A DNA stretch of 64,000 nucleotides. It comes from a virus. The notes under the pieces are model-generated. The model made no database searches. It was not told where the DNA came from and saw nothing but the letters and a program-made list of their open reading frames with translations. The stretch covers positions 12,490 through 76,489 of IMG/VR virus record IMGVR_UViG_3300036790_000811; one strand, given 5' to 3'. How positions within the stretch are numbered: position 1 is the stretch's first letter; every line of letters begins with the position of its first letter. The position numbers and the translations under genes are program-made. Positions 290-58,390 of the stretch are shown here, in pieces.

Positions 290-1156
290 ATGTCTCGCGG
301 ACGTCATGCAGCTCCTTCGGCAACCCGGAAGGCCATATCTGCCGGGGTTTCCGTTACCACCACCACGCTCGCGGCCAGTGCGGTCGCGGCAATAGCGGTG
401 GCAGGGGGTCACGCTAGCGCAAGCACGACACAGGCGGCACCTGTCAATCCCGTCAAGGTACAGGCCGACGCTTACGTAGTCCACACGGTTAAAGTCCAGG
501 CGGCCAGTCACTACACCGTCAAATCCGGCGACACGCTCTCCGGGATAGCCCAGGCTAATCTCGGAAGTGCCGGCAAGTACGAGTGCCTGGCGGCAGCCAA
601 CGGCATTGAGAACCCGAATCTCATCTACGTGGGACAGGATCTCGTCCTTGACTGCTCAACGGGCGAGATCAGCCAGCAGCCCGAGAATACTCCCGCAAGC
701 GAGCCGCCATCCAGTGACTCGTCTACGGATTCGTCTACGGATGAGTCTGCCACGACTCACGATTCTTCCCAAGCGGTATCCACGTCCGGAGACGGGAGCT
801 TCCAGTCCTGCGTTATTTCCCGCGAGTCGGGCGGTAACCCGGACATCTGGAACGCGAGTGGACATTATGGACTCTACCAATTTTCGGAGAGTACCTGGGA
901 AGCCTACGGCGGTTCTGCCAGTGATTTCGGCCACGCTAGCGTGGCCGAGCAGAATCAAGTGTTCGAGAACGCTATGGCAACTCCCGGCGGAGAGGGAAAT
1001 TGGGGTCCTTACGATGGATGCTTATGCAATGTGTTAGAATCCTCGTATGGAACGTACGCCACCCCCAGAACCCGGGACCCGTTTCGGGCGCTGGACAGTT
1101 ACCGGAGAGTCATTCATGAGGGATCCGTCGCATCGAGCCATACCGGTTCGTTGTGA
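290..1156 (+). CDS. Secreted LysM + resuscitation-promoting factor (Rpf)-type transglycosylase; the functional end is probably near GPYDGC (1021)
   Basis: Signal/TM N-terminus; LysM YTVKSGDTLSGIA…NPNLIYVGQ; Rpf motif CVISRESGG…YGLYQF…TW…ASVAEQ…W; the domain ends at GPYDGC, followed by TTA and a tail that overlaps the next gene. Confidence 0.9.
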   Translation: MSRGRHAAPSATRKAISAGVSVTTTTLAASAVAAIAVAGGHASASTTQAAPVNPVKVQADAYVVHTVKVQAASHYTVKSGDTLSGIAQANLGSAGKYECLAAANGIENPNLIYVGQDLVLDCSTGEISQQPENTPASEPPSSDSSTDSSTDESATTHDSSQAVSTSGDGSFQSCVISRESGGNPDIWNASGHYGLYQFSESTWEAYGGSASDFGHASVAEQNQVFENAMATPGGEGNWGPYDGCLCNVLESSYGTYATPRTRDPFRALDSYRRVIHEGSVASSHTGSL

Positions 1157-6377: not shown

Positions 6378-9300
6378 ATGGCTGACAAGCGCCGGGTTGC
6401 CGCCGCACTGAAGTCAATTCCCGGGGCTCGCCCCACGATGGCTCCTCAGTCGTCGGGGTACGGTTCCGCGTCGCCTATCGCGGCGATGATGAACCAGCAG
6501 AACCAGTTCGCCAACTCCTATGGTCCTTTCCTGCCCCGGCCGAGCCAGGTGTTCACCGACGGCGCTTTCGGTCCCATGTCGCCCATTCAGCCGGTGCCGG
6601 TGGACAATCCCCCGCCGGGAGGGGAGTTCGCCGACCCCAGAAGCTGGGAATACCGGGTCGGCTGGAACCTTCCGACTCCTCCGGGGACTGAGGGTCTCAA
6701 GCTGGCAAGCTTCCAGCAGCTGAAGACCCTCAGTGAGAAGTACTGTTTGGCACCAGAAACCCGGGTACTCTGCTCGGACTTCACGTGGCGTCAGCTATCG
6801 GACATCAGCGTGGGTGATGAGCTCATCGCGTTTGACGAAGATCCCCCCGCTCGTGGACTGCACCGTAAGATGCGGTTTGCGACAGTGACGGCGTATGACC
6901 GGATTACACGTCCCTGCTACCGGGTGACACTGACAGACGGTCGTACGGTTGTCGCATCCGCCGAGCATCTATGGCTTGCCGGACGTGACAAGGCGGATGG
7001 TTCCTGCGCCTGCGAAATCTGCGGAAAGCAGTTCGGCCGCGCTCAGGGGCTGGGTGTGCACCGCAGGCAGGTTCACGATATCGAGGGTCAGTGGAAGCAC
7101 AACAACTTCGGAGCATGGACGGTGACGGCGCAGCTGCGCCCGGGAAGCACTATCCGTGATCTCGGCTCCCCCTGGGAAGAGGATTTTTCCCGGGAAGCCG
7201 GCTATCTCTCTGGCGTTTACGACGGGGAAGCTTCTCTTAATATCGCGAACGGTAATCATAAAGGCTGGGGAATTGGATTCCCGCAGAATGCTGGTCCGGT
7301 TTTCGATGAAGTAGAAGCCATTCTCAAGCGCAAGGAATATGGTTTTCGGATTCACGGTCCAGGTATTAATGACTCCTGTAAGCATATTACGATCAGCGGG
7401 ATGCGTGATTGTTTCCGCTTCATGGGAGAAATGCGCCCTCTTCGTCTTCTAGGAAATGCCAGGAAGTGGATAGAGGGAAATAGCCCTTCCCGTGCTGGAT
7501 GTGCGACCGTGGAATCCGTAGAATTCCTGGGCGAGCGAGAGGTAATCGCTGCCGGCACGAGCACGAGCACGCTTATTGCGGAAGGGCTGTTTTCGCACAA
7601 CAGCGTCGCCCGCGCCTGCATCGACCTGCGCCAGCAGGAGATCCGTGGTCTCGAATGGGAGATCACGATGACCAAGGAAGCGGCGAAGGCATACCAGAAC
7701 TCGCACGCCAGGATGAAGGACTTCGGGGTCCGCGCGGCGGAGGCCACGAAGTTCTTCAAGCGTCCCGATCCGGATTATTGGACGTTCAGCTCGTTCATGA
7801 ACGCGATGCTGGAAGAGATCTTCGTCTACGACGCCCTGAGTGTCATCTTCCGTCCCAAGTACGGTGCCAAGTTCGGGCGCGGCGGTCGCGGGCTCCTCGG
7901 CAGCGACCTGGACTCGCTCCGTCTCATTTCGGGACCGACGATCCGTCCCCTGGTGGACCTGCACGGCAACATCCCCAAGGCTCCGGGGACTCCGGCCTAC
8001 CAGCAGTACCTGTACGGCGTCCCCCGCTCGGACTACATGTCCATCCTTCGGGGTGACGACATTGCGGGAACCGTCCTGGCGGGGTCGGAATACAACGAGT
8101 TCACCGCCGACTTGATGCTGTACGCCCCCTACTGGCCGCGCCGGGAGACCCCCTACGGCTTCCCGCCGATTGAGCGCGCCCTCTTGCCGGTGATCGCCGG
8201 GCTTCAGAAGCAGGAATACCAGCTTGACTTCTTCTCCGAGGGTTCGGTTCCGGCGGTCTATATCTCCCCGGGTGACCCCAATATCACCCCGACGCAGATC
8301 AAGGAGCTGCAAGACGCCCTGAACGGGATCGCAGGGGATCCGGCGTACCACATGAAGGTCGTCGTCCTCCCTCCTGGCTCTAAGGTCGAGCCGCAGAAGC
8401 CCGTGGATCTCGCGGACTCCTTCGACCTGCTCGTTCAGACTCAGGTGTGCATGGCATTCGATTGCCAGCCGGCAGAGCTGGGCATTCTGCCGAACGTGGG
8501 CAGCAACCAGGGCGGTGGCGGAGCCTCGGCCGGTGCCATCCGCCTCGGCATGCAAGAAGCCCGGGACATCAAGTCCCGCAAGTCCACGAAGCCGACCCTG
8601 CACTTCATCGCCAGCATCTTCAACTATATCCTTCAGGATGTCTGCGGCCAGAAGGACATGAAGTTCACCTTCGAGGGCCTCGCCGACGACGAGGACCAGC
8701 AGGCGATTACCGACCTCGGCGTCCAGCAGGTCCAGAACGGTATCGCGTCTATCGATGAGGTCCGGGACCGCCTTGATCTTCCCCCATGGGGCCTGTCCGA
8801 GACGTCGGAGCCGGTGGTCTTCACCGCCCAGGGGCCGATCCCGTTCTCCATGGCCCCGCAGCTCATCGCGAACATGCAGGGACAGAACGGAGGGTCGTCG
8901 TCATCCGGGAACTCGAACAATGGTACCCAGTCCAGCAATTCCGGGCAGCGCACTTCCTCCTCGCGGACGAGGACGAATCAGCCCTCGGTGCGAGCCGGAG
9001 GGCAGACCAAGCCCAACGGCAGTCATCAGGCGCCGATCGCCCCGCATCGCGAGTCCCTGACGCCCGCACATAGTGCCGCCAGCGGGGCCGTGCAGAGCCC
9101 TACTCCCCGAACTGGCGGCACCCCTTCGCGATCAAGTGTGGCCGGATCGAGGAAGAAGGCGGTGGAGGCTGAGTTCGGTGCCCTGAAGCGCCACCTCCGC
9201 AAGGGCCGGCTGATTACCACCTGGGAAACGCGGCACATTCCCGAGCGGTCCCTGTCCATGATTTCGGAGGACATCGCCAACGGCCTGCTGATTGACTCCG

Positions 9301-11525
9301 CCGTGGACCGGGCCACCGATTTCGTTCTGAAGGACGAAGAGGACATCTTTGAGCCGATCGTGGCCAAGGCACAGCAGTGGCCGGGCTGGGAGCGCGATCT
9401 CGGGCTCGTCGGTGCCTATAAGCAGCAGATTGAGGGAGCCTTTGCCGTTGCCCAGGCCAAGGGTGAGCAACTGCGCCACAAGGCGGCCAACGGGGGCATG
9501 TTCGTCTCCAGCTCTGCCCTGCGGGGACTCATTTCGGATGAGATGCATGACACTTTCCTGGGGGTTCTCCAGCCTCTGTGGAGCGAAGCGTGGCACCTCG
9601 GTTACGAGGCGGCCAAATCTCTGGTCACGGGCCAGGACGCGGACTTCGCCGTCAAGCACGAGAGCGGTGCGCTCGACGGGTTTATCGACACCCAGGGCGC
9701 TCACTGGGCGGAACAGATCGCCCGGACCGGCCTGAAGAACGAGAACGCCCGGACTGAGGCTATCGCCCGGACCGAAATAGCCCGCGCCGTGAACGCGGCG
9801 GCCATCCAGGCGTACCGGGACTACGGTGTCACCCACAAGCAGCTCATGCTTGCTCCTGATGACGCCTGCGACATCTGCAAGGATGCCGAGGATGAGGGTG
9901 TCATCCCGCTGGACGCGATCTTTCCTCAGGGAGGTCTTGGCGGTCCACTTCATGTTTCGTGCCGATGTGTCCCTGTCGCCGCCGGGATCGAGTTGGAGCC
10001 TCCGCAGGGACATCTCGGCAAGAGCCTTCTCGGGGATCTGGCTGCATCCGGTCCCTTTCCTTCCAGTGGGCCCGATCACCCCTACAGGCAGGACGGGCAG
10101 TCCGGAGCTGGCAACTGCGAGTGCGGTCATGCCGCAAGTGCACACGAAGATAAGTCCCGGCTTGCTTGGCTGCTGATGCGCGCCCGGGATGATGACGGCA
10201 AGTACCGCTTCCTGCTCCAGCAGCGGGACGACGGCACCTGGGGTATGCCCGGCGGCACGACTCACGTCGGGGAAGATCCGTGGGACGCCGCTATCCGCGA
10301 GTGTACGGAAGAAGTCGGGGACCTTCCGGGCATGACCGTGGCCGCCACGTTCCACCACGAGGAAGACAATGGCGCTCGCGCCTACGTCTGGATGGTGGAC
10401 GTTCCCTATTTCCAGCCGAAGATGAACGGCTCGACTCCCGAGGAGACCCAGGGTGTCGCCTGGTTCCGGCGCAAGGAGATCGACAAGCTTAACCTGACCG
10501 GAAAGTTCCGCGAAGACTGGGAGCAGACGCCCGATATCCGGGAGTACGCCACCAAGAACCAGAACATGGTGAACGAATCCGGTGAGCGACTGGCGATCGT
10601 GGACTCCCAGGCACCGCTGCACGCTTCGGGAGCGCGGTGGCCCTACCCGAACCGGTCGCCGAACGGCTTTCCGATCGAGGACCCGCACTACAACCAGGCA
10701 CCGGGCGAAATGGGAGCCAGCGAGCCTCCCCGCAAGGACCTGGACAGCGATACCCCGACCCGGCTGTACCCCAGGGGTACCGAAGACGAGAAATTCCCGC
10801 CCAGGAGGGGAAAGGGCAAGCCCGCCAAGAAGTTCCCGGAGCAGGGCGACGAACAGTGGCCCGAGACCGAGAACGGCGGAGCGCAATCATCGTCCGCTCA
10901 GGTAGGGGGCAATACGGGAGTCCCGAAAGCGGGTCCCGTGCCGGCGGTAGGGAGCGTCCCGGCGAAGACGCCGACTCCGATGGCGCCCCGGAGTGTTCCT
11001 CCGCAGGTTTACGATCCCGCTGACGCGGTGGCGACGGAAGAAGACGGGGAAATCGCGTACTACCCCCAGCCGAAGCCGAAGAAGGGAAAGGGTGCCGCGA
11101 ATTACACGGACCCTTCTCCGGTGGACGCCGAGCACGTATACGTTCAGCTCGCCAGGAATTTCCCACCAAAAGCTATTGCCTGGGTTCAGCGAGCTCGATG
11201 GATCGGCCCCATCTGGATTCCGTGGGATCGGATTGATACTGACGACCAGGATGAATGGGCCGCCTCCCACCAGCCTGAGCACGTGAAAGATTTCATGCGC
11301 CAGATCAAGGATCATGACGGCCGGATCGTCCCGTCGGTCCTGGTTCAGGAGCCAGACGGCGGAAAGGCGTTCATCGTAGACGGTCATCACCGTGCTCTCG
11401 CCCGGGAAAAGCTGGAGCAGCCGGTGCTCGCTTATCTCGGGACGATTAACCCGGATGATCGGCAGGCGGCACTGGAAACCCATAGCGCCCAGGTTCATCA
11501 CGGTGCCGACCATGACAATAACTGA
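6378..11525 (+). CDS. Portal protein (intein-containing) fused to MuF/gp7 head morphogenesis, Nudix and ParB-like domains
   Basis: Portal-like YGFPPIE…F.EG.VP…F…PAELG; MuF IARTE…CDIC…PLHVSCRC; Nudix box GGTTHVGEDPWDAAIRECTEEVG; ParB IVDGHHR; AAGGAG RBS. Confidence 0.9.
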   Translation: MADKRRVAAALKSIPGARPTMAPQSSGYGSASPIAAMMNQQNQFANSYGPFLPRPSQVFTDGAFGPMSPIQPVPVDNPPPGGEFADPRSWEYRVGWNLPTPPGTEGLKLASFQQLKTLSEKYCLAPETRVLCSDFTWRQLSDISVGDELIAFDEDPPARGLHRKMRFATVTAYDRITRPCYRVTLTDGRTVVASAEHLWLAGRDKADGSCACEICGKQFGRAQGLGVHRRQVHDIEGQWKHNNFGAWTVTAQLRPGSTIRDLGSPWEEDFSREAGYLSGVYDGEASLNIANGNHKGWGIGFPQNAGPVFDEVEAILKRKEYGFRIHGPGINDSCKHITISGMRDCFRFMGEMRPLRLLGNARKWIEGNSPSRAGCATVESVEFLGEREVIAAGTSTSTLIAEGLFSHNSVARACIDLRQQEIRGLEWEITMTKEAAKAYQNSHARMKDFGVRAAEATKFFKRPDPDYWTFSSFMNAMLEEIFVYDALSVIFRPKYGAKFGRGGRGLLGSDLDSLRLISGPTIRPLVDLHGNIPKAPGTPAYQQYLYGVPRSDYMSILRGDDIAGTVLAGSEYNEFTADLMLYAPYWPRRETPYGFPPIERALLPVIAGLQKQEYQLDFFSEGSVPAVYISPGDPNITPTQIKELQDALNGIAGDPAYHMKVVVLPPGSKVEPQKPVDLADSFDLLVQTQVCMAFDCQPAELGILPNVGSNQGGGGASAGAIRLGMQEARDIKSRKSTKPTLHFIASIFNYILQDVCGQKDMKFTFEGLADDEDQQAITDLGVQQVQNGIASIDEVRDRLDLPPWGLSETSEPVVFTAQGPIPFSMAPQLIANMQGQNGGSSSSGNSNNGTQSSNSGQRTSSSRTRTNQPSVRAGGQTKPNGSHQAPIAPHRESLTPAHSAASGAVQSPTPRTGGTPSRSSVAGSRKKAVEAEFGALKRHLRKGRLITTWETRHIPERSLSMISEDIANGLLIDSAVDRATDFVLKDEEDIFEPIVAKAQQWPGWERDLGLVGAYKQQIEGAFAVAQAKGEQLRHKAANGGMFVSSSALRGLISDEMHDTFLGVLQPLWSEAWHLGYEAAKSLVTGQDADFAVKHESGALDGFIDTQGAHWAEQIARTGLKNENARTEAIARTEIARAVNAAAIQAYRDYGVTHKQLMLAPDDACDICKDAEDEGVIPLDAIFPQGGLGGPLHVSCRCVPVAAGIELEPPQGHLGKSLLGDLAASGPFPSSGPDHPYRQDGQSGAGNCECGHAASAHEDKSRLAWLLMRARDDDGKYRFLLQQRDDGTWGMPGGTTHVGEDPWDAAIRECTEEVGDLPGMTVAATFHHEEDNGARAYVWMVDVPYFQPKMNGSTPEETQGVAWFRRKEIDKLNLTGKFREDWEQTPDIREYATKNQNMVNESGERLAIVDSQAPLHASGARWPYPNRSPNGFPIEDPHYNQAPGEMGASEPPRKDLDSDTPTRLYPRGTEDEKFPPRRGKGKPAKKFPEQGDEQWPETENGGAQSSSAQVGGNTGVPKAGPVPAVGSVPAKTPTPMAPRSVPPQVYDPADAVATEEDGEIAYYPQPKPKKGKGAANYTDPSPVDAEHVYVQLARNFPPKAIAWVQRARWIGPIWIPWDRIDTDDQDEWAASHQPEHVKDFMRQIKDHDGRIVPSVLVQEPDGGKAFIVDGHHRALAREKLEQPVLAYLGTINPDDRQAALETHSAQVHHGADHDNN
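6744..7601 (+). mobile_element. Intein (286 aa) with a LAGLIDADG endonuclease and an inserted C2H2 zinc finger
   Basis: Starts Y|CLAPETRV, block B ASAEHLW, LSGVYDGEAS, ends FSHN|S; AT-richer than the flanking exteins. Confidence 0.93.
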
Positions 11526-12076
11526 GAAGCTCCTGCTTCCAGATAGTCCACCATGGCCTGCAGTCTTTTGATGTCATCTTTTACCCATCCAAGAATCAGG
11601 TTGCAGTCTTTACAGAGAAGGCCTCGAATCTTTCCTGACTCATGGCAGTGGTCGATCGACATCCTGGCGGTCTTATTGCCGCATATGTCGCAACCATCTC
11701 CAGCTCGGCGCCGCGCCTCTACCTTGAGCCCGTCTGGGCCATAGATTCGGCGTACACGTGCGACTCGCTGGTTTTGGAGACTGCGTTCTTTGTTTGCGTG
11801 ATGCCACTCCAGGGAGTTCTTGGACATGCATCGTTTACAGATGCGCTGTCGTTTGTCCCGGTAACGTATGTTTTTCCCGAATCCTTCAATCGGTTTTTCT
11901 TCGTCGCATCGAGTGCACGTTCGCTTGGTGTCGCCTAGCACCACGGGCGCCGGGGCTCTAGAGATGAACACGTCCCCATATGTCATGAATCTTCGATAGT
12001 GGAGTCGGCAGTAGCCCCTCGCGACGTGCGGCCGAACGCAGTCGGGGACATCGCATTTCCTTTCTTTTGGTGTCAT
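11498..12076 (-). mobile_element. Free-standing endonuclease VII-type HNH homing endonuclease (antisense)
   Basis: CDICG…IDHCHESGKIRGLLCKDCN; N-terminal C..DC…ARGYCRLHY; leaderless TAAGAT -10 box. Confidence 0.92.
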
Positions 12077-12113
12077 AAATTCAATCTTAGCAAAGAAGGT
12101 GAGGTGATGTAGG

Positions 12114-12436
12114 ATGGTCGAGAAGTCTGAGCAGACTCCGACGCTTAGCAGCGAGCATCACCCTCTCGGAAGGGAGGGCTTGTGGCGCACTCCAAGTAAG
12201 CGCGTTCCGGAGAAACAGCAGCTTCCGGCTTATTTAACATCCAGAACATCGCCCGCGCCCTCATGAGAGACCAGGGCATGGATGAATCGCAGGCCATCGC
12301 CACTGCCGTCAATGCGGTGAAGCGCTGGGCGCAGGGCCATCTCGGGGAAGGCGGAGGCCAGGTGCACCCTGAAGTGGTAGCCGCCTCCCGTGCTGCGCTT
12401 GACGAATGGCGCAAGCTCCGGGAAGAACATCAGTGA
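12114..12436 (+). CDS. Head-associated protein split by a frame change at TAT-TTA-AC (12231-12238)
   Basis: Frame 0 MVEKSEQ…KQQLPAY continues in the -1/+2 frame as IQNIARALMRDQGMDESQAIATAVNAVKRWA…EWRKLREEHQ*; strong RBS GAGGTGA. Confidence 0.75.
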
Positions 12437-12648
12437 AGCGCCACACTAAGCAGATCCGCAAGCGCCGGGAACGAGCCGAACGCGCGTTGATCGAACTCGC
12501 TCTCGCGCTTGACAAATGTGATTCTCTCGGGGTAAAACTTGAACATGGAATAGCCGTGTCCAGATACGGTTATGTGATCCCGTTCAAGAAAGGCTGGGGC
12601 GTCCGCATGATGGCGGAGTCCGGCCGCGACGAAGACTACTTCGACTAA
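12433..12648 (+). CDS. Hypothetical protein
   Basis: GTG overlapping the previous stop (GTGA). Confidence 0.65.
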   Translation: MKRHTKQIRKRRERAERALIELALALDKCDSLGVKLEHGIAVSRYGYVIPFKKGWGVRMMAESGRDEDYFD

Positions 12649-12657
12649 TGACTTTCC

Positions 12658-12679
12658 AGCCCGCTTTGCGGGCTTTTTT
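12658..12679 (+). terminator. Rho-independent terminator
   Basis: AGCCCGC-TTT-GCGGGCT followed by a T run. Confidence 0.75.
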
Positions 12680-12702
12680 GATGCCCGTACCCATGGAGGC
12701 GT

Positions 12703-15486
12703 GTGGCTGCCACTCTGACTAATGACAACGAGATCCTCTACAGCAGCTTCCCGATCGAGAAGACCGAGACGACTGAAGACGGGGACCTGATTGTCTACGG
12801 CAAGGCGTCAGACGGCGGCCTGGACTCCGACAGTCAGATCGTAGATCCCAAGTGGATGGCGAAGGCGGCTCAGGAATGGCTGAGTACGGGCGGCAATCTT
12901 CGGGTGCAGCACTCGGCGCAGCGCGATCCTGCCGGGGTTGGCCTGGAAGCCACAACCGACGACTCAGGGAGTACGTGGGTTAAGGGGCTTGTTGTCGAGC
13001 CGGTTGCCCAGAAGCTTGTCAGCAAGGGCGCACTTCGTGCTTACTCGGTGGGTATTGCCCGTCCGACTATTACGCGAGACGCTTCTGCCCCGGGAGGCCG
13101 GATCATCGGCGGCGAGCTCGTAGAAATTTCGCTTGTAGACAGGCCCGCTAACAAGCGATGCGGAATCCAGCTCGTGAAGTCCGCGAGTGACGGTACTCCT
13201 GAATATGTCGGTGAGGTCTTCGGCTCCGAGGAGGACATCTCCAAGGCCCTGGGCGCGGATACCGTCAAGAACTACGACGCTGACGGGGAAGTCCCCGAGT
13301 CTTCCATTCCGCTGGCACAGGACACGGTGTTCTCGTTCACGCCGAACGACCTGGCGAAGATCGTCAAGTCTAAGGTCATCGAGGAACACTACGCCGAGCT
13401 GGCGATGAAGGCCATCGGTGATGCGGAATACGAAATTCTCGGTAAGGATCACCGCGAGTTCACCACTGATCGCCGCAAGGATCTTGCCGGACAGGGCAAT
13501 GCCCTTCCGGATGGCAGTTACCCCATTCCCGATAAGGACGCCCTTCGTCGTGCCGCCATCCTGGCGCGCTCCGGGCACGGAAACGCAGCGGCAGCGCGCC
13601 GCCTGATTGCCCGTAGGGCGAAGGAGCTTGGTGTGGCAAATCCGCTCGACGCGGACGACAAGGTCAAGAACGAGGATGTGACGACCGCCCCCGTGGCTGA
13701 GCCGGAGGTTCCCAAGGAGGCGGACGCGGACGTCACGAAGGACCCCGCCGACGGTGACGGTCCCGGCCCGGTGGACAAGAAGAAGCCGAAGAAGGGCAAG
13801 AACGGGAAGCCCCTTCCGCCCTGGCTCCAGGACAACAAGGGCAACTCCAAGTCCGGTGACTCGCCGTCGAACAAGCAGGACAACTCCGGTGACGGGGATG
13901 ACGCTGACGACGATGACGACGACAAGAAAGACATGGACTGCAAGCTCCAGCACACTCACACCGAGAAGTGCCACCCGAGCGGCACTCCGCAGAGCACCTC
14001 TGGCGCCAAGGACTCTCCCCCGATGAAGGAGATCCCGGACCCGGGCGCGGCGGAGTACACCCCCATGCCTGCCGGGCGGGCGACAGAACACCACAAGGGC
14101 GCCAACCCGGAGCAGGTCGCACTCATGCGCTTCAAGAGCGTGGGCATGGATCCCGACCTCGGCCGTCTTCACGACCTGACCTGTGCCGCGTTCCACCCGG
14201 AGGACGTCGCCAAGTATCACCCGTTCGCGGATTTCGCTTCCACGATCGACACCGGGGTCTGGCAGCGCAAGGCCGTAGACGCGGCCTGCGGCCCGCTGGA
14301 CCAGGCGATGGCGATGACCCAGGTGTGGCAGGCGGCGGAGACGCTCAAGGGCGCCGACCTGGCTGACCTCAACGACTACCGGCTGGCGCTGCACAAGGCG
14401 TTCCGGGACGCGAATCCCGGGCCGTCCAGCTATCCGTCGCCGGGCTCCATTTCGCCGGACCGTTACAACCGGCCGCTGATCACGGACGGGCACGAGACGT
14501 CGTCGCCCGGACATGACGGACCGAACTCCTCTCCCGACGTCGCTTCGCACGCGCCGTCCGGCGGGGACCATTTCGACCGCCCCCCGCTGGGGGAGGGTCA
14601 TCAGTCGCCGTCCCCCTCGTTCATGAAGGGCGGCTTCCCGTACCCGACTGAGCAGGGCGTGCCGACCAAGGTCCCCTTCGCCCACGCCGAGAAGGAGCGC
14701 GCCCGTCAGGCTCTGAGCCTGATGCACGATCATCTCGCCCGGATGTTCCCGAGTGCCTGCCCCATGCATGAGCAGGACCCTCACCGCGTTGACCAGCGCC
14801 CGGCGGTGCCGGAGCCGGTCGGCAAGACGGTAGAGCCGGAGGCTCAGGCCGAAGCGGTGAGCAAGTCCGAGACTCCCGGGAACGTCTTCAAGGCGGAAGT
14901 CGGCGACGACGAGGTCATCAAGGGCATTCGCAAGAAGCTGGCCAAGAAGGTTCTGAGCGGCAAGCTGACCGTGGACGAGGCGCGCGCCAAGCTGGGCCGC
15001 GCTCGTGCCCAGAAGTCTGACGAGCCCGACGAGAACGTCGTCAAGGGCCTGTTCGAGACCGGGAAGATCACCCGGGAAGAGGCGCTCAAGCAGCTGGGAC
15101 TCCAGGAGCCGGCGGCTCCCGCTCCCGCTGTCAAGGCAGCCGTCCCCGACGTCCCGACTCTTACCCCGGACATCATCAAGTCCGCGATTACGGAGGCTAT
15201 CGCCCCGATCGCGCAGGAGCTGGCCAAGGCCAGGGAAACGATCGATGAGCAGCAGAAGGCTCTCGACGTCCTGGCTGACCAGCCCGACCCGAGCACCGCC
15301 GCGTTTGCTGGAATCGCGGTGAATAAGTCGAGTCGCCCGGCGGGCGTCCCGACCCAGGCTGAGATCGCGGAGCGAACTCAGACGATGGTTATGCGGCAGC
15401 TCGACAGGGCTTACCGCACCAGCGAGAACCCCGCAGAGCGGGAAGCCGCCTTCCAGGCGCTTAGCAAGTACCGCGCATTTGAGTAA
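12703..15486 (+). CDS. Capsid maturation protease fused to a scaffold/accessory region
   Basis: HK97-type protease motifs (LRVQHS, AYSVGI, ELVEISLVDRPAN); ALPDGSYPI domain; coiled-coil C-terminus; directly before the capsid gene. Confidence 0.9.
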   Translation: MAATLTNDNEILYSSFPIEKTETTEDGDLIVYGKASDGGLDSDSQIVDPKWMAKAAQEWLSTGGNLRVQHSAQRDPAGVGLEATTDDSGSTWVKGLVVEPVAQKLVSKGALRAYSVGIARPTITRDASAPGGRIIGGELVEISLVDRPANKRCGIQLVKSASDGTPEYVGEVFGSEEDISKALGADTVKNYDADGEVPESSIPLAQDTVFSFTPNDLAKIVKSKVIEEHYAELAMKAIGDAEYEILGKDHREFTTDRRKDLAGQGNALPDGSYPIPDKDALRRAAILARSGHGNAAAARRLIARRAKELGVANPLDADDKVKNEDVTTAPVAEPEVPKEADADVTKDPADGDGPGPVDKKKPKKGKNGKPLPPWLQDNKGNSKSGDSPSNKQDNSGDGDDADDDDDDKKDMDCKLQHTHTEKCHPSGTPQSTSGAKDSPPMKEIPDPGAAEYTPMPAGRATEHHKGANPEQVALMRFKSVGMDPDLGRLHDLTCAAFHPEDVAKYHPFADFASTIDTGVWQRKAVDAACGPLDQAMAMTQVWQAAETLKGADLADLNDYRLALHKAFRDANPGPSSYPSPGSISPDRYNRPLITDGHETSSPGHDGPNSSPDVASHAPSGGDHFDRPPLGEGHQSPSPSFMKGGFPYPTEQGVPTKVPFAHAEKERARQALSLMHDHLARMFPSACPMHEQDPHRVDQRPAVPEPVGKTVEPEAQAEAVSKSETPGNVFKAEVGDDEVIKGIRKKLAKKVLSGKLTVDEARAKLGRARAQKSDEPDENVVKGLFETGKITREEALKQLGLQEPAAPAPAVKAAVPDVPTLTPDIIKSAITEAIAPIAQELAKARETIDEQQKALDVLADQPDPSTAAFAGIAVNKSSRPAGVPTQAEIAERTQTMVMRQLDRAYRTSENPAEREAAFQALSKYRAFE

Positions 15487-25995: not shown

Positions 25996-26175
25996 ATGTC
26001 GAGAGCAGCCGGACTGTGCAAATTGTGCGGCGGGCCCAAGCGGGGCCGGGCGGCACGGACGGCTGCTCCCATCGCCCAGTGCAGTGAATGCGGCGCGGAT
26101 ATCTGCCCGAAGCACGCTACGTGGCGTGATGACAGTTACATCTGCAAACGATGCGAGAGGGCATCCAAGACATGA
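25996..26175 (+). CDS. Small Cys-rich zinc-finger protein (59 aa)
   Basis: AGGAG RBS; CKLC…CSEC…ICPKH…CKRC; not in the ORF track. Confidence 0.7.
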   Translation: MSRAAGLCKLCGGPKRGRAARTAAPIAQCSECGADICPKHATWRDDSYICKRCERASKT

Positions 26176-27155
26176 CGATGCCAGTCCCGCTAGGGCTAAC
26201 CCCGTACATAAGCCCCGCCACGCTTACGCAGGCATCTACGGGTGTTGACTACAGCTCTATTCCCGCGACCCCGAACTTCGATCCCCAGGCCAACAACTCC
26301 GAGCTGTGGAACATCTGCCAGCGCGCTACGGCCATGGCGGACCAGTACTGCAACCAGGTACTCCGGGCGACACTGGATACCGAGGTCATGCGCGGTCCGG
26401 ACTACCGGGTCACCGTAGGTCCCCAGGCCGGGGGAGCCTACCCCACTCCCTACTGGGGGAATGCGGGATCGAACGCGCGAATGATCATGTCCCGCTGGCC
26501 GGTCCTCGCGGTCAACGGCATCAAGGTCAGCCCGAACAACTTCCCCCGCAACTGGGTAACGGTCCCGGCGAACAACTACGAGCCGGAGCTTCCCCCGTAC
26601 GGGATCTTCAATAGCGTGGCTCCCGGTGACGACGCCTACGGCGGCCAGGCCATCATCATGGGAGCCGGCTACGTCGGCTGGAACTACGGCCGAAACGGCT
26701 ATGTCCTCCAGGTCAGCTACACCAACGGCTGGCCGCATACCTCGCTGACGACCGTGGCACCCGCAGGAGCCGAGACCATCTCCGTGGCGGACACCACGGG
26801 CTGGGCCGTCAGCAACTACGAGGACACCGTAACGGGAGCCACGGGAGTTTTCAAGGACGGGGGACAGCAGGAGGCGGGGTCGGTCGTCTCCGCGTCCACC
26901 ACGTCCGGACCCGGCACCCTGACCCTGAGTTCCCCGCTCCAGTTCACTCATCAGGGCGGGGTCGTGTTCAGCACTCTTCCCGGGGCGATTGAGCAAGCCT
27001 GCATCCTGTTCGGTGCCGGACAGGCTCTCGTCCGGGGTGCCACTACGACCACCATTCACGCTATCGGGGGTCATGCCCAGTCCAGCGGGGCTGACTTCAG
27101 CGAGCTGAATCTTGAGGGCGAGATTTTGCTCCATCCCTTCCGTCGGAGTGTGTAA
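26172..27155 (+). CDS. Putative head-to-tail adaptor
   Basis: ATAMADQYCNQ…YTNGW…PGAIEQAC…ILLHPFRR pattern; position in the operon. Confidence 0.75.
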   Translation: MTMPVPLGLTPYISPATLTQASTGVDYSSIPATPNFDPQANNSELWNICQRATAMADQYCNQVLRATLDTEVMRGPDYRVTVGPQAGGAYPTPYWGNAGSNARMIMSRWPVLAVNGIKVSPNNFPRNWVTVPANNYEPELPPYGIFNSVAPGDDAYGGQAIIMGAGYVGWNYGRNGYVLQVSYTNGWPHTSLTTVAPAGAETISVADTTGWAVSNYEDTVTGATGVFKDGGQQEAGSVVSASTTSGPGTLTLSSPLQFTHQGGVVFSTLPGAIEQACILFGAGQALVRGATTTTIHAIGGHAQSSGADFSELNLEGEILLHPFRRSV

Positions 27156-42300: not shown

Positions 42301-42858
42301 GTCGTGGCCCAGTTCGGGGACCAGCCGGGACAGCTGCCGTTCGAGAACGACACCAGCTTCGCGGTAGACAACCAGTTCATCTTCAACGTGGTCAACGCGA
42401 CCCAGCAGCGCGGTCCTAACCAGGACCTGTTCATCCAGGAAAACAATTTCCAGAGCCAGAACCAGTTCTTCATGCGCTCCGGGATCAGCTACCAGTCGTA
42501 CGCGATGCTGCCGTTCGACGTCAGCGACCTGGTGAACTGGTCGGTCGCCAAGTACCAGGAACCCCACGACCGGGTGGTCCAGGTCACCATTGACGTGGCC
42601 GGGGTCCAGGCGTCCAACTCGGCATTGTTCCCGACCATTCTCTCACTGGAGCTGAATCAGACGATCACGGTGACGAGAACCCCGATCGGGGGCAGCCAGA
42701 TATCCCTGACCGGGGTTATCCAGCAGATATCGCACGAATTCGGGGCCGCGAGCTGGAAGACCACCCTCGAAGTGACTCCTTTGATCCCGGAAGCCAATGC
42801 CCTGATCGCGGATAATACAGGTAATGACACTCCGGGATCGAGCTTTTTGGCGTGGTAG
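39337..42858 (+). CDS. Minor tail protein (hub/baseplate-like, with lectin-like domains)
   Basis: WTDIS…KRGRQYEL…LDN.TG.F; LamG-like AVEFWF; position after the tape measure gene. Confidence 0.85.
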   Translation: MGFTAVGTIFDNGNGNSTFSVSPQAVGDILLVEIIVSGSSSITVTALLGGGVTTWTKIASYAGTSNAATGSVWMGTVTTTGSAVGIPTFSGGTSGDFLEMAGQEYSSTTGAMFAQAAYLDTSFTGNMPSLTPSGAGQMYFCFASDNGIASPGSTTGYVYQLDATGNGLAYNQNCTSGVSTHPVWTDGNLSFGIAVLISGSGSGSNTATGSLTITPQMNAQAAPGGSAQAALTVTPGFLAVASGGSGALSIAQIVPGNVINDYGLDNVPFTVNTPGTGTMLAAFIGWNAAASTAQSSGKAPAVNVTDSAGNLWRQAGITAVDPLARCALWVADNPRQTEWVSVALTGWGYSTAYTIVELDGVPSSLGQISLDFVSPVTTDTPVTTLTIPSQTASTSDLVLGVVTTGGPGGPLTVPTGWTGIQAVGGATSGDVTTYSVYRQSSAGAVTLAPSWANSVPASGVMAGIRITSAAPVQPNPNFPAIRVEAAFGATPGDWTQSVDYTYDIGGLAWTDISQYTTDEEGQSTISVKRGRQYELSQEETGTLEVQLDNHTGIFTYSNTASTFYPNVIPGTPLRVTAWFGGVQYPVGFGYAEKWPQEWPKMPQWGFSRVTATDAYGPLAACNLFSAVISEIRKDSPYAYFPTTEQYEFTTQSLDPVQAPLDANGLIAANYAFGNNRFGAYRDGYDQPVTVGQALNLMGDQNTTLGATTYTGQEVNDNGPGMFYFDNGIPTNASGKSFAVEFWFAWGNTSSFACTMLSAWASPSSFFTVATSTTPPSAGGVLTVGINTPAEGNTLEAGFFVNGTEISGGTFNQDTYAPQHFVLNVAGTNVTAYLNGVQQPNTPSVATIPMIRAFALGPARFSYDVSGMVVYNGYNYISGHAAWYSHALNPTVISNHYESGATGFVGDPAPGRFAQVLTWGGLGLKRGGTAWYNTYGNYEGTFMSEAYDYDGSSAADIMSQITQSEGGRCYIQANGSIVYAYRWSLYDQPVVAQFGDQPGQLPFENDTSFAVDNQFIFNVVNATQQRGPNQDLFIQENNFQSQNQFFMRSGISYQSYAMLPFDVSDLVNWSVAKYQEPHDRVVQVTIDVAGVQASNSALFPTILSLELNQTITVTRTPIGGSQISLTGVIQQISHEFGAASWKTTLEVTPLIPEANALIADNTGNDTPGSSFLAW

Positions 42859-43529
42859 CGCATCTTGGAGTAGTGCGGATAGCAGAGACCCTTGCCATAG
42901 TGCGCCTTTTCGCAACCCGGTTCCGTGCAACGGCGGGCGTTGGGATTGTTTTTCTGGTTGCGATTGTAGTGGTTCTTGCACAAACCCCTGGCGTACGCCG
43001 CTTTCTCGCACTCAGGTTCTTCGCAGCGAGGAGAATCCGGGTTGGATAGTTTCTCTTCTATGTAATCCCGGTGCCGCTCTCGGCGACACTTTCGACATAC
43101 TCGATCACCCTTTTGGCCTATATACGTATTGTCGCTTGTATATGGATGACCCCGAGGACATTCAATTATGTTCTTGCGGATTCCATGTTGAATGTCATCG
43201 AGAAGGTTCTCTTTGTAGGTTCCGTATGCAAGATTGGAAAGTCTGTTATCGGCAGGATTTCCGTTGAGATGCCGAGAAACGATGCTTTTAGGTTTAGGAC
43301 CCACAAAGGCATCCAGGACGATGCGGTGCACGAGTCTGACTATTCCCCTTCCGTTTCGGTGAAGGGTAACTCGGAGATGACCGCTCGGATTCGGAGTCGG
43401 CCTAAGATAGGGCCAGTCTGTACCGCGAGGACCCTTGCGGTAGACGAGACGTTTCACGCGTCCGTAGTCTGATACTGCATAAAACTCTTCATAGTCCACC
43501 ACTGGAAGCCAGCGCTCCTGATCCGCCAT
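42657..43529 (-). mobile_element. NUMOD4-HNH homing endonuclease (antisense); start refined to ATG 43529
   Basis: ERWLPVVDYEEFYAVSDYG; RHLNGNPADNRLSNLAYGT; leaderless TACACT -10 box. Confidence 0.9.
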
Positions 43530-43562: not shown

Positions 43563-45832
43563 GTGCCAATCTCCCCTTCCAGCTATGCGACGAACACTCC
43601 CATAACTGCGCACCAGCTTTTAACCAGGATTTTTACAGCATAGATGGCAGTGCATTCAATGCCACGGGAACAAGCTTTCACGCTAACCGCCCCCTGCTGG
43701 TAGAGACTTTCATCAAGGCGGGAGCGCAGGCTACCGCCCCTACGGGGGGAGCACCCAGCTTCCTCGGCGGGGTGAACGGGGACGCCATCTCGGTGATCGA
43801 CAACGCTGCCCTGTACGGGACCGGCGCGGACGGGGTCGGCAACGAGGCGAGATTCAACTCCGGCGGGGCTGTTGCTCCCGGCTCGGCGGGGATCTCGGGC
43901 CAGTACGGCGGCTGGAACCTCATGTTCGCGTTCGTCCCGATCTCCAAGTTCCCGGTCGCCGGGGGCATGTACGGCGTGGAGTGGAACGACTCCGCCATCA
44001 CCGGCAATCCTCCGGCTGACATCGGCTGCATGCAGCCCGCCAGCACGGTCTACAACAACGCCGGCTTCGCCTGCGACATGGTCGAGCTCGTCCCCCCGCT
44101 CTACAGCGCGGACTGGGGTCCGTCGGTCTACGCACTGAGCCCGACCGCTACCAGGATCCCGCTGGTGGTCAACACCGTCACGACGGTAGGCCAGACCCCG
44201 CGCTTCACCCAGATCTGGACCGGCGTCCTGAACGGCTACGGCACGCCGGTAAGCACGGTGCCGTCCCCGATGACGGTGATCACCGGGCTGACGACACTCA
44301 GCAGCTCGGCACTGAACGCCACGATCAACCAGAGCCTGAACCTGCTCAACTACCCCCCGATGCTGGACGTGACGGTCCAGTCCACGGCGCCGATCAACGC
44401 CAGCTCCGTGACGACCGTGCCGTTCAGCAACACCCCGGTTGAAGACAACTACAGCGGCTACAACGTCTCTGCCCGCACCTACACGGTGCCGTTGTCCGGA
44501 CTGTACTTCATGCACGCGAACCTGATCTACAGCCCGGCCTTTACCGTGGGAACGGCGATCGCCGGGTTCGACGTCAACGGGGCCATCCGGTGGGGAGGGG
44601 CCTACGCGGCGACCCCGAGTGCCAACCAGAACACCGGGGCCTCGGTCACCAAGCTGTTCGACCTGAACGCCGGGGACACTGTCCAGGTCATCACCGCCAC
44701 CAGCGTGGCGGCAGCCTTCGGCAGCGCGAACTACAGCCACTTCATCATGAACTGGATGGGCGCGCTCAACAGCAGCACCCAGCACTGGAAGCCGCCGAAC
44801 GTCACGGGCTTCCAGTTCACCGCCGGGATGCCCCCCGAGTCGGTCACGAACATCGTCCAGAACTCCTACTTCACGGCCGGGACGAGCAAGTGGAGCGGCT
44901 TCAACGGGTCGTTCACCGTGACCTCAAGCCCGGCCGCCGGGGCACCGTATCCCAATGCCGGCGTCTACGTGAACAACGGGTCGGCGTCCGGGGCGATGGA
45001 AGGCGGGGGGACATTCCAGGTCGATCCCACCGAAGTGGTCTACCTGGACGCGTGGACCTGGACCTCGGGAACGGTAATCCAGGCCGGGTTCGACTTCCTG
45101 AACAGCGGGACCTACGTCACGTCGGTGCTGTCCAACTTCACCGTGCCGACCCAGACGTGGAAGCTGGTCAGCCTGCCCGTTACCGCCCCCTCGTCGGCCA
45201 TCAACAGCGCCTACGCCCGGGTGGGAACCCCGTCCGGGAGCGGTGCCACGATCCAGACGCAGGCGATCCTGGCAGGCTTCCAGAGACCTCTCGCGCCCCA
45301 GCTGAACGAGAAGATCGCCAACGACCTCAACTTCCTCATCAACCGCCCGTACCTGATGGCCCGCCAGACGACGGCAACCTCAGGGACGGTGAATACCGCC
45401 ATCACGGTGCCGATGCAGACCGCGACGGGACTGATCCACAGCACCTTCGGGGACAACTACGGCGGCTGGAACGGCACCGCCTACACCGCCCAGGTTCCGG
45501 GCTGGTACCTGGCGGTCGAGGAAATCGGCGCGGCCACCCGCTCGACGGCGAATTCCGGCGACAGCCTGACGGCGGGCTTCTCGGTCCCCACTAGCGGCGG
45601 GGTAAACGCTCCCACGACCCCCCAGGCGATGCCGGACTGGTACCAGCAGATCCAGGTGGCCGGGAGCTGGACTTATCCCACGGCGGCGACGGCGATCGGC
45701 GCCTACTACCTCAACACCGGGGAATCCATCTCCCCCAGTGCGCGGTACCAGTCGGGCACGGCGACCAGCTGGACGACGGACACCTCGCACAGCTTCAATG
45801 GGCAGTTCAGCCTCATCTATTTGAGTTCGTAG
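43563..45832 (+). CDS. Minor tail protein; probable true start GTG 43563 with a frame change at CTT-TTA-AC (43617-43624)
   Basis: AAGGAGGTGA SD correctly spaced to GTG 43563; MPISPSSYATNTPITAHQL joins NQDFYSIDG in the long frame. Confidence 0.8.
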
Positions 45833-55948: not shown

Positions 55949-56862
55949 ATGAAGGTGCCCCCGGAGCGGCGGGTCGGGCTACTCCGGGGGCGGGGCGTTC
56001 CGGGATCTGGGGAAGGCGGAACGCCCGGCTTGCAAGTTTAACCGCTACCAGCGGCCGGGGCGCGAGTACTTCTCGCCGCAGAGCATGAGACCGCTCTTGC
56101 GCCAGTGCGGAGAGTTGGAGGGCTGCTCACCGCATAGCGCGAGACCGCTCTTAGGCGGAGACGGCATGTCACATTCCGGTCCTACCCCGGCAATCCGAGA
56201 TAGACCCGGCATGATCAGCGAACAGGCGAGGGTGTGGATGCCAGCCCGACTGTCACAGTGCGGGCGGACCGGATTGGCCCTATAGCCCTTGATCATCAAG
56301 TTCAGGATTGTCACTATCATGCTTATCTCCTATCAGTTTGCTGAGGGCACTGTGCCCCTTGGTCTCGGACAGCTCCCAGAGGGCTGCCCGGGTGCCGATC
56401 TCGGCTTCCCGTAGCCAGAAGTCAGTCGTCATTGTCGCCGCTCATGTCATCCTTCCCTGTCATCTCGGTGCCGGAAGCTGCGCGTCTGCTGTCGAACCAG
56501 TCGCACAGATGCCCTTGGATGACGTTCGGGAGTCCCACCCAGTGTCCCGCTTCGTGGATCCACTGGAGCGGGTGGTGCTTCAGGTCAGTCATCATGCGTC
56601 CTTCGTTGATGGCCAGAGCAGGTCAAGCGCCTTCGATGTTCATGTCTCCATGGACCCGCTGACAGGCTCCGGCCCGTGGACCCCGGGGAGTCGAACCTCG
56701 CCGGATCCCTAGACGGGATCCGGGACCATCAGGCCCTCCCGCATCCACGGTGTCGGCTCGTGAAGCAGGGATGCTTCGGCTACCTCGTCCCAGGTTTCCC
56801 CGGGCCAGGGGCACACGCTGTCGTAATCCATCGTATCGCTTCCCATCGGTTTCTTACTGCCG

Positions 56863-56890
56863 ACAGTACCTGCGATACGAGGTTTGTCAA
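56863..56890 (-). promoter_or_regulatory. Sigma70-type promoter
   Basis: TTGACA-16 nt-TACTGT. Confidence 0.55.
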
Positions 56891-56915
56891 CGTTACCGGA
56901 GGGTAGTTCCCGGTT

Positions 56916-57068
56916 GTTACAGCGCCGAGAGAAACCGGCTGAACCCGGTGGCCGCGACGTAGAGTGCGTGACCGATCCCGTCAGCGGCATGAGCGGCCTG
57001 GGCCGGTTCCCTGACGGCCCACCACAGGAGGAACGCAATGAGAAGCCATCCGGCGATCCTGCGGATCA
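56916..57068 (-). CDS. Small membrane protein (MIRRIAGWLLIAFLLWWAVREP…)
   Basis: Hydrophobic, about 50 aa; read manually. Confidence 0.6.
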
Positions 57069-57084
57069 TGTCCGGCTTTCCCGG

Positions 57085-58389: not shown

Positions 58390-58390
58390 C

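What the first reader, a model, noticed from the sequence alone, without database searches (positions are those of the whole stretch)
12114..12436. Head gene requires a -1/+2 frame change at a TTA codon (TAT TTA AC)
Seen: after a strong SD, frame 0 reads …KQQLPAY-TTA and stops 10 codons later. The shifted frame continues IQNIARALMR…AIATAVNAVKRWA… and has no start codon of its own before the join. LPAY-IQNIA reads as one continuous motif with 5 extra nt. Known: UUA is the rare bldA-dependent codon in Streptomyces, and UUA-associated translational bypassing has been proposed for Streptomyces phage Hau3 terminase. Inference: programmed slippage or hopping at a hungry UUA codon links virion production to the host's developmental state.
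Basis: partly seen in the sequence, partly recalled or inferred. Interest (0 to 1): 0.8.

Follow-up and report, generated by a model that had tools for sequence, protein, structure and literature searches.

The report
Short UUA coding gap in phage
A conserved small gene in the head region of an uncultured soil phage is interrupted by five extra bases that begin with the rare leucine codon TTA; the same kind of TTA-started interruption recurs in other genes and in related phages, so ribosomes probably hop over these bases and the gene is probably not dead.

Summary
About 28 related phage contigs encode one uninterrupted ~105-aa protein (…KQQLPAY|IQNIARALMR…). The window has five extra bases, TTAAC (12234-12238), exactly at Y|I. 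An independent assembly at 44x depth gives the same sequence. One relative, only 68% identical in this protein, has the identical TTAAC at the same codon boundary. Both copies show the same purifying selection as intact copies.

This is not an isolated case. In this phage clade I found eight distinct frame-breaking sites (nine gap sequences, 13 phage instances) in three virion-region genes, including a second one in this window (43620-43621). The gaps are 2-16 nt long. Every gap starts with TTA, among the rarest sense codons. All lie 18-39 codons after the start codon. In three gap sequences the codon before the gap and the last codon of the gap are read by the same tRNA (GAT/GAC, ACT/ACC, ATA/ATA). 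In all four +1-class gaps the +1 frame hits a stop at once. No intragenic frame break without TTA was found.

The best reading is short-range translational bypassing triggered by a slow UUA, as proposed for Streptomyces phage Hau3. Homing endonuclease genes flank several sites, as with T4 mobA/gene 60. There is no protein or RNA evidence. The host is unknown (probably Actinomycetota), so the link to host development is untested.

The parts
6378..11525 (+). Portal-MuF-Nudix-ParB-like polyprotein. In several relatives the small domain gene is fused to its C terminus.
   Evidence: ORF. In L027, L084, L019, L083 and L085 the ...ALETHS...NKSAQTP...LPAY... sequence continues in one ORF from the polyprotein.
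11498..12076 (-). Free-standing HNH endonuclease (Endonuclease_7 type). It is transcribed divergently and sits between the polyprotein and the small gene.
   Evidence: PF02945, 66 bits. The orthologue (66% identity) lies in the same place in L022. About 28 gap-free relatives lack it there.
12098..12109 (+). Shine-Dalgarno-like sequence GGTGAGGTGATG ahead of ATG 12114.
   Evidence: A similar sequence precedes the L022 copy.
12114..12233 (+). N-terminal 40 codons of the small head-region gene (frame 0), ending at the take-off codon TAT (12231-12233).
   Evidence: 57-78% identical to the N parts of uninterrupted homologues.
12234..12238 (+). Coding gap TTAAC. TTA is the frame-0 codon after the take-off codon, and AAC is the putative landing codon.
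   Evidence: absent from about 28 homologues; identical in L022; same sequence in an independent contig at depth 44.
12239..12436 (+). C-terminal 65 codons plus stop, in the -1 frame, resuming at ATC (Ile). Three-helix domain.
   Evidence: Fold of the intact homologue L011: helices 39-52, 56-71 and 84-104, mean pLDDT 81. The junction lies at the N-cap of helix 1.
12263..12266 (+). ATGA: the frame-0 stop TGA overlaps an in-frame Met codon of the C part. This is the basis of the reinitiation rival.
   Evidence: An analogous ATGA occurs in L022 at 6701-6704.
42657..43529 (-). Second free-standing homing endonuclease (NUMOD4 + HNH_3), divergent from the gene that holds the second gap.
   Evidence: PF13392 and PF07463; ORF.
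43563..43619 (+). Second site, N-terminal 19 codons: GTG start 9 nt after GGAGG, then ...PITAHQL, with take-off codon CTT at 43617-43619.
   Evidence: Homologues L157, L158, L160, L161 and L162 read MP..P....P.TA.QL|N(D).D.. in one frame.
43620..43621 (+). Second coding gap, TT. The frame-0 codon after the take-off codon is again TTA (43620-43622). The local sequence CTT TTAAC C resembles site 1.
43622..45832 (+). Second site, remainder of the 750-aa tail-region gene, resuming at AAC (Asn).

Best explanation
The small head-region gene is a working gene with a five-base coding gap. Ribosomes start at ATG 12114 and read 40 codons up to Tyr (UAU). They then meet UUA, the rarest sense codon of this phage, in the A site. 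Three related phages whose tRNA arrays could be read in full encode no tRNA for UUA.

During the pause, the peptidyl-tRNA-Tyr lets go of UAU. The mRNA slides a few bases and the tRNA re-pairs with AAC (2 of 3 positions). Decoding then resumes at AUC and gives the colinear ...LPAY-IQNIA... protein. A +2 variant that adds one Asn cannot be excluded. Ribosomes that decode UUA as Leu instead end ten codons later.

The same device is used at a second site in this window and at six more sites in relatives, so it is a property of the clade. The gap at this site lies about 160 nt from the start of a divergently transcribed homing endonuclease gene, which separated this domain from the upstream polyprotein. 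The gap may have arisen, or be kept, because it disrupts the endonuclease's target.

Shown: the gap itself, its conservation, the regularities across sites and the codon rarity. Inferred: that ribosomes bypass it, how efficiently, and any regulatory or endonuclease-immunity role.
For: 1. The gap is real. It is identical in an independent contig at depth 44.

2. It is precise. About 28 homologues are uninterrupted at Y|I, and 139 of 150 family representatives have no residue at that point.

3. It is conserved. L022 has the identical TTAAC, although its small protein is 68% identical, its HNH 66% and its capsid protein 74%.

4. Selection is unchanged. Window versus L022 gives pN 0.23 and pS 0.76, like intact pairs (pN 0.19-0.20, pS 0.69-0.78). 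The 8 codons between the gap and the first Met give pN 0.11.

5. There is a clade-wide pattern:
- CTT|TT|AAC (this window)
- TAT|TTAA|GAC
- GAT|TTAGGAC|TGG (three phages), plus the variant TTAGGGC
- ACA|TTATCGAAATT|GGA
- ACT|TTACC|GGC
- ATA|TTAAATA|GAT
- ACA|TTAGGGCCCCCGGTCA|GGC
All begin with TTA and lie 18-39 codons from the start.

6. Take-off and landing codons are read by the same tRNA in three gap sequences. They pair in at least 2 of 3 positions in 8 of 9.

7. The four +1-class gaps read UUA-A or UUA-G, so a plain +1 shift meets UAA or UAG at once. Both +1 and +2 frame changes are needed, which one hopping mechanism covers.

8. Scans of 7 genomes and 77 loci found no intragenic frame break without TTA.

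9. TTA accounts for 20 of 19,461 codons, the rarest sense codon. The fully read tRNA arrays of three relatives have Leu-CAA, Leu-GAG and Leu-CAG, and also Ile-TAT and Arg-TCT, but no Leu-TAA.

10. There is a precedent: the Hau3 terminase UUA inserts, with partial experimental support.
Against: - There is no protein, ribosome-profiling or RNA evidence, and no RNA run holds the stretch.
- At this site, take-off UAU/UAC and landing AAC mismatch at the first position. A nearer near-cognate codon, UAA at +4, would lead into the wrong frame.
- No stimulatory RNA structure was found (z-scores -0.8 to +0.8, not shared with L022), and no conserved internal Shine-Dalgarno sequence.
- Only two phages carry this particular gap. 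They may share it by descent, which would make it a single event.
- The flanking 2-3-nt repeats at other sites could come from the mutational process that made the insertions rather than from selection for re-pairing.
- TTA does occur in frame at a few homology-supported positions aligned with Leu or Phe, so UUA is decodable and the yield of bypassing is unknown.
- The window's own tRNA array is cut off by the record end, so whether this phage lacks a Leu-TAA gene is unknown.
Confidence: 0.68

Rival explanations
1. Ribosomal frameshifting rather than hopping. UUA is decoded as Leu, the P-site tRNA-Leu(UAA) then slips back one base (U_UUA to UUU), AAC is read next, and the product is ...LPAY-L-N-IQNIA... 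with two extra residues.
For: Both gaps in this window share T_TTA_AC, with TTT AAC in the -1 frame. This resembles the known slippery U_UUA_AAC minus one A (my own knowledge). A third lineage (L092-L095, L156) has an in-frame TTAGAC at the same point, giving ...LPAY-LD-IQHIA, which is colinear with a -1 product.
Against: L022 has C_UUA, so only the middle base would re-pair. There is no X_XXY_YYZ heptamer and no downstream structure. Four sister gaps need a +1 change with a stop directly in the +1 frame, so frameshifting cannot be the general mechanism. None of 139 family representatives has extra residues at this point.
Confidence: 0.12
2. Split gene. The two halves are made as separate polypeptides, with the C part started by termination-reinitiation at the ATGA overlap (12263-12266).
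For: In both the window and L022, the frame-0 stop TGA overlaps an in-frame ATG of the C part.
Against: The ATG used would differ between the two phages (Met of ALMR versus Met of NGMSE). It would cut off 8-12 residues of helix 1, yet those residues stay conserved at the protein level while synonymous sites are saturated. Any ATG-A in the C frame creates such a stop, so the overlap is cheap. The other seven sites have no such restart codon.
Confidence: 0.08
3. Plain inactivating indel. The gene is broken and dispensable, and the TTAAC is a mutational or endonuclease-repair scar with no decoding consequence.
For: Only two phages carry it, and both carry the neighbouring HNH gene, whose activity could leave scars. 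The function of the small protein is unknown.
Against: Both halves stay open and evolve like intact copies across a divergence in which synonymous sites are saturated. The identical 5-mer is kept. Every independent break in three genes starts with the rarest codon, which random indels would not do: about 0.007 per site by base composition (my estimate). The phage stood at 44x in its sample.
Confidence: 0.1

Closest known systems
UUA-mediated translational bypassing proposed for the Streptomyces phage Hau3 terminase (Smith et al. 2013; RNA Biol 2023, PMC10732093)
   Same: Frame-disrupting inserts begin with UUA. The flanks are adjacent in homologues without the insert. The setting is an actinophage-like one in which UUA is rare. 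The proposed trigger is a slow A-site UUA, with the peptidyl-tRNA re-pairing downstream.
   Different: The Hau3 gaps are 10 nt, in the terminase, in a temperate Streptomyces phage and two prophages. Here the gaps are 2-16 nt, in three virion-region genes (not the terminase), at eight sites in a clade of roughly 110-135 kb uncultured soil phages with large tRNA arrays. All lie within 40 codons of the start. No 5' stem-loop or internal Shine-Dalgarno sequence was seen. The host is unknown.
T4 gene 60 50-nt bypass with the MobA homing endonuclease element (Bonocora et al. 2011, as described in bioRxiv 10.1101/2022.08.31.505936)
   Same: An HNH endonuclease gene has split a parental ORF. The downstream ORF starts anew, and about 40 codons later carries an untranslated insert next to the endonuclease (one search compared). 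A second gap in this window also lies beside a homing endonuclease gene.
   Different: The gap is 5 nt, not 50. There is no take-off stem-loop. A rare sense codon follows take-off, not a stop. Take-off and landing are not identical at this site. The endonuclease is transcribed divergently. There is no sign of recent mobility. Several sister gaps have no clear homing endonuclease beside them.
Hungry-codon hops and shifty stops in E. coli (Weiss et al. 1987; Gallant and Lindsley 1998; my own knowledge, both listed as references in PMC10732093)
   Same: Short forward hops of +2, +5 or +6 happen when the A-site codon is slow, with the peptidyl-tRNA re-pairing at a nearby similar codon.
   Different: Those are low-level events in reporters. 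Here the gaps sit in conserved natural genes and are evolutionarily maintained.
Bypassing elements ('byps') in Magnusiomyces capitatus mitochondria (Lang et al. 2014; cited in PMC10732093)
   Same: Many coding gaps in several genes of one genome, flanked by matching take-off and landing codons.
   Different: Byps are 27-55 nt structured mobile elements in a yeast mitochondrion. Here the gaps are 2-16 nt and unstructured.

Membership tests
Programmed translational bypassing (general) | A coding gap: two colinear halves of a protein separated by nucleotides that are absent from homologues and break the frame | tested here: met
   about 28 uninterrupted homologues; 5 extra nt in the window.
Programmed translational bypassing (general) | Take-off and landing codons read by the same peptidyl-tRNA | tested here: inconclusive
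   At this site UAU/UAC versus AAC pair in 2 of 3 positions. Sister sites in the clade have cognate pairs: GAT/GAC, ACT/ACC, ATA/ATA.
Programmed translational bypassing (general) | A slow or stop codon in the A site at take-off | tested here: met
   TTA follows the take-off codon at all sites. TTA accounts for 20 of 19,461 codons, the rarest sense codon.
Programmed translational bypassing (general) | Stimulatory mRNA structure or nascent-peptide signal | tested here: not met
   No structure beyond shuffled controls, and none shared with L022. A nascent-peptide effect cannot be tested here.
Programmed translational bypassing (general) | A junction peptide or trans-frame product is observed | not testable with these tools
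   No RNA holder is listed and there are no proteomics.
Hau3-type UUA-mediated bypass | The insert begins with UUA and its flanks are adjacent in counterparts | tested here: met
   definition from PMC10732093.
Hau3-type UUA-mediated bypass | A host in which the tRNA-Leu(UAA) supply is limiting or regulated (bldA) | not testable with these tools
   The host is unknown. An Rpf-like gene points to Actinomycetota. The tRNA arrays of three relatives lack Leu-TAA.
Homing endonuclease plus bypass cassette (MobA/gene 60 type) | A free-standing homing endonuclease gene beside the gapped ORF, having split a parental ORF | tested here: met
   PF02945 gene at 11498-12076. The domain is fused to the polyprotein in L027, L084 and L019.
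Homing endonuclease plus bypass cassette (MobA/gene 60 type) | The gap is present only where the endonuclease is present | tested here: inconclusive
   TTAAC occurs with the orthologous HNH in 2 of 2 cases. An in-frame TTAGAC occurs with a 50%-identical HNH. Three loci with a 39-45%-identical HNH have no insert. Several sister gaps lack a clear homing endonuclease.
Homing endonuclease plus bypass cassette (MobA/gene 60 type) | The gap protects against cleavage; the element is mobile | not testable with these tools
   There is no sign of recent transfer: the cassette is no more similar between the window and L022 than the rest.
-1 programmed ribosomal frameshift | An X_XXY_YYZ slippery heptamer with a downstream structure | tested here: not met
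   The sequence is T_TTA_ACA in the window and C_TTA_ACA in L022, and no structure was found.

The most novel reading that the evidence does not exclude
A whole clade of large soil actinophage-like viruses gates several virion genes with 2-16-nt UUA-started coding gaps placed 18-39 codons after the start. Full-length virion proteins would then be made only when ribosomes stall at UUA and hop, that is, when the host's tRNA-Leu(UAA) is scarce. The phages carry nearly complete tRNA sets but deliberately omit that one tRNA. Some gaps double as self-protection for neighbouring homing endonucleases. This would be the first multi-gene, multi-genome natural system of short-range bypassing, and it would offer a natural series of take-off and landing pairs.
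Probability: 0.35. Interest if true: 0.9.

Novelty: new variant of a known kind. Interest (0 to 1): 0.8.

Why it matters
Natural translational bypassing is known from very few systems: T4 gene 60 and its relatives, yeast mitochondrial byps, and the still only partly tested Hau3 terminase. This window and its relatives offer eight independent sites (nine gap sequences) in three genes. The gaps are 2, 4, 5, 5, 7, 7, 11 and 16 nt long, all begin with UUA, and they have cognate or near-cognate take-off and landing pairs.

That makes a ready comparative data set for three questions: what a ribosome needs in order to hop, how a rare codon can act as a switch, and how homing endonucleases and recoding co-evolve.

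It also matters for annotation. Gene callers split or truncate these genes, so essential virion genes of such phages are mis-annotated as fragments.

Tried and rejected
- Megablast of 11400-13400 against isolated phages found nothing. tblastn of the 50-aa N fragment against phages found nothing. The same fragment against the 5.8-billion protein set gave no candidate.
- No RNA holder is listed for the stretch. The second DNA run, X2, has no contig across 12114-12290, so it says nothing about the gap.
- RNA folding around the junction gave nothing beyond shuffles.
- A fold search of the three-helix domain against the PDB gave no match at E <= 0.001. Pfam and PHROGs gave nothing for the small protein.
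- I considered that the odd tRNA at 62385-62472 (8-nt anticodon loop CCUUGAAA) decodes UUAA or UUAAC. I rejected this. A quadruplet reading gives the wrong frame at both sites in the window, and no similar tRNA was found by DNA similarity in five relatives.
- I considered a target-site duplication or excision footprint. There is no flanking repeat of TTAAC.
- I considered recent homing between the window and L022. The N half next to the HNH gene is not more similar than the C half.
- A viral-contig scan with the protein of the second gapped gene found no close relative; relatives were reached through the genome search instead.
- The census of TTA in homology-supported codons is contaminated by antisense shadow frames. 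I used it only to say that some in-frame TTA codons exist.
- Three calls (92-94) failed because I gave wrong coordinates.

Full report
**What is there**

The window is the last 64 kb of a 76.5-kb IMG/VR record classed as a provirus. Logan's contig of the same sample is 127.7 kb. Relatives are 110-135-kb phage genomes, some with terminal repeats. It is therefore more likely a large virulent-type phage genome than a prophage.

GC content is about 61%. There are no cultured relatives: the best capsid-protein hit in isolated phages is 28% identical. An Rpf-like LysM/transglycosylase gene has its best genome matches in a Streptosporangiaceae MAG (50%) and an Actinomycetota MAG (47%). The host is thus probably an actinomycete, but it is not identified.

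**The observation**

ATG 12114 follows a strong Shine-Dalgarno-like sequence. Frame 0 reads 40 codons to ...KQQLPAY, then TTA, and stops ten codons later. The -1 frame is open from 12200, has no start codon before 12263, and reads IQNIARALMR...AIATAVNAVKRWA... to 12436.

In about 28 related viral contigs the two halves are one ORF, and the C half begins at the base after the N half ends. In 139 of 150 cluster representatives of the wider family (1,855 representatives at E <= 0.001) nothing stands between the aromatic residue and the helix start. The window therefore has exactly five extra bases, TTAAC (12234-12238).

Logan's independent assembly at word depth 44 has the same sequence, so this is not an assembly error.

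**The protein**

The intact homologue folds with good confidence (mean pLDDT 81) into an extended N-terminal arm and a three-helix bundle. The junction lies at the N-cap of helix 1. No solved structure or named family matches.

The domain occurs in several forms:
- on its own;
- fused to the C terminus of the portal-MuF polyprotein (L027, L084, L019);
- at the N terminus of large proteins of Streptomyces and Microcystis phages;
- inside a Microbacterium phage protein, with related matches annotated as capsid maturation proteases.

It looks like a head-associated module. Its function is unknown.

**Conservation of the gap**

L022 comes from another soil metagenome. It has TAC TTAAC ATC where the window has TAT TTAAC ATC. 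Yet its small protein is only 68% identical, and each copy has closer relatives without the gap.

Synonymous sites between the two are saturated (pS 0.76), while pN is 0.23, as in intact-intact pairs. The eight codons between the gap and the first Met are also constrained. A dead gene would not look like this unless the break were very recent in both lineages.

Both phages have an orthologous Endonuclease_7-type HNH gene (66% identical), inserted divergently between the polyprotein and the small gene. A third lineage (L092-L095, L156) has a 50%-identical HNH gene and an in-frame six-base TTAGAC at the same point. Loci with more distant HNH genes (39-45% identical) have no insert.

**A clade-wide pattern**

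An earlier first-stage note on this genome (e1-6075125) pointed to a second TTA frame break beside another endonuclease gene. I tested it.

The gene at 43563 starts with GTG, nine bases after GGAGG. It reads ...PITAHQL, then CTT TT AAC. Five homologues read ...TA.QL|N.D... in one frame. So two extra bases (43620-43621) break the frame. The frame-0 codon after the last colinear codon is again TTA. A NUMOD4/HNH_3 endonuclease gene lies divergently about 90 nt upstream.

I then compared all ORFs of seven related genomes with each other and read the N terminus of one further gene in 52 relatives. That gene is intact here at 26151-27155. The further gaps are listed below, with vertical bars marking the gap:

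| Phage record or locus | Gene | Gap |
|---|---|---|
| G006 | same gene as the window's second site | TAT\|TTAA\|GAC |
| L007, L022, L065 | third gene | GAT\|TTAGGAC\|TGG or TTC |
| L012 | third gene | GAT\|TTAGGGC\|TGG |
| L027 | third gene | ACA\|TTATCGAAATT\|GGA |
| L008 | third gene | ACT\|TTACC\|GGC |
| L006 | third gene | ATA\|TTAAATA\|GAT |
| L015 | third gene | ACA\|TTAGGGCCCCCGGTCA\|GGC |

Taken together:
- Every gap starts with TTA.
- All lie 18-39 codons from the start codon.
- In three gap sequences the last codon before the gap and the last codon of the gap are read by the same tRNA. In eight of nine they can pair in at least two positions.
- The four gaps that need a +1 change read UUA-A or UUA-G, so a plain +1 shift would terminate at once.
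- Other gaps need +2. One mechanism, hopping, covers both; frameshifting does not.
- No intragenic frame break lacking TTA turned up in either scan.

By base composition a random insert starts with TTA about 0.7% of the time (my estimate). Eight independent sites make chance negligible.

**Codon and tRNA context**

TTA is the rarest sense codon in this phage's ORFs: 20 of 19,461 codons, or 1.4% of Leu codons. It is absent from the large structural genes.

Three relatives whose tRNA arrays I read completely carry 30-39 tRNA genes. These include tRNAs for the rare AUA and AGA codons, and Leu-CAA, Leu-GAG and Leu-CAG, but none for UUA. The window's own array is cut off by the record end.

**Mechanism at this site**

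The reading that fits the clade is as follows. Peptidyl-tRNA-Tyr takes off from UAU while UUA waits in the A site. It lands on AAC, pairing at the second and third positions. Decoding resumes at AUC. This gives the exact colinear protein.

A +2 shift (product LPAY-N-I) or a -1 slip after reading Leu (LPAY-LN-I, colinear with the TTAGAC allele's LD) cannot be excluded from sequence alone.

No RNA structure or conserved internal Shine-Dalgarno sequence was found, unlike what is described for T4 and proposed for Hau3.

**Comparison with what is known**

Hau3 terminase has two 10-nt UUA-started inserts, and bypassing there is supported by reporter and mass-spectrometry work, the latter in E. coli with UAA in place of UUA (PMC10732093).

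The layout at this site also resembles the T4 MobA element: an endonuclease splits an ORF, the downstream ORF starts anew, and an insert follows about 40 codons later. In T4 the insert protects against the element's own nuclease (bioRxiv 10.1101/2022.08.31.505936).

The differences here are the very short gaps, the many sites and genes, the placement close to the start codon, the lack of visible RNA signals, and the uncultured clade. I found no paper describing this in the held library.

**Verdict**

Programmed recoding at UUA is the best-supported explanation, with confidence of about two in three that it is bypassing. All the evidence is comparative.

The proposed link to host development is untested, and the host is not known to be Streptomyces.

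I rate it a new variant of a known, still poorly documented, kind.

Noticed in passing
window 62385-62472 (-): A class II (long variable arm, Ser-like) tRNA with an 8-nt anticodon loop, CCUUGAAA, on a perfect 5-bp stem (Rfam tRNA 36.4 bits). ARAGORN reports a 2-base anticodon. It could be a quadruplet-reading or defective tRNA. It does not explain the gaps here.
   Followed up: partly
window 62089-62210 (-): A YrlA (Y RNA-like) match at 39.9 bits, below the gathering score of 69, with a tRNA-like module. It lies at the edge of the tRNA array.
   Followed up: no
window 56675-62684 (-), and relatives G001, G002, G005: Relatives carry arrays of 30-39 tRNA genes covering nearly all codon boxes, but no Leu-TAA or Leu-TAG. 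The window's record ends just as its own array begins, so the 'provirus' boundary probably cuts a 127.7-kb phage contig.
   Followed up: partly
L159 (G006) about 80 nt upstream of its gapped gene; compare L158: The upstream tail-fibre-like gene ends ...QYLSW, followed by TTA where the relative L158 has the stop TAA. The frame then runs on about 29 codons into the next gene. TTA may act as a stop-like signal in this clade.
   Followed up: partly
window 6378-11525: A 1715-aa ORF joining portal, an intein-like insert (CLAPETRV...SHNS), MuF, Nudix and ParB-like parts. I did not check the domains with a tool.
   Followed up: no
L015 6020-9880: In one relative the small three-helix domain gene runs on without a stop into the protease/scaffold gene, giving one ORF of about 1,286 aa.
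   Followed up: no
loci L010, L013, L006, L012 downstream of the small gene; window 12406-12648: The interval between the small gene and the protease gene is a hot spot for different HNH genes in relatives. The window has an 80-aa ORF of unknown function there.
   Followed up: no
window 290-1156: A phage-encoded LysM plus Rpf-type transglycosylase protein (PF01476, PF06737). Its best genome matches are in Streptosporangiaceae and Actinomycetota MAGs.
   Followed up: partly
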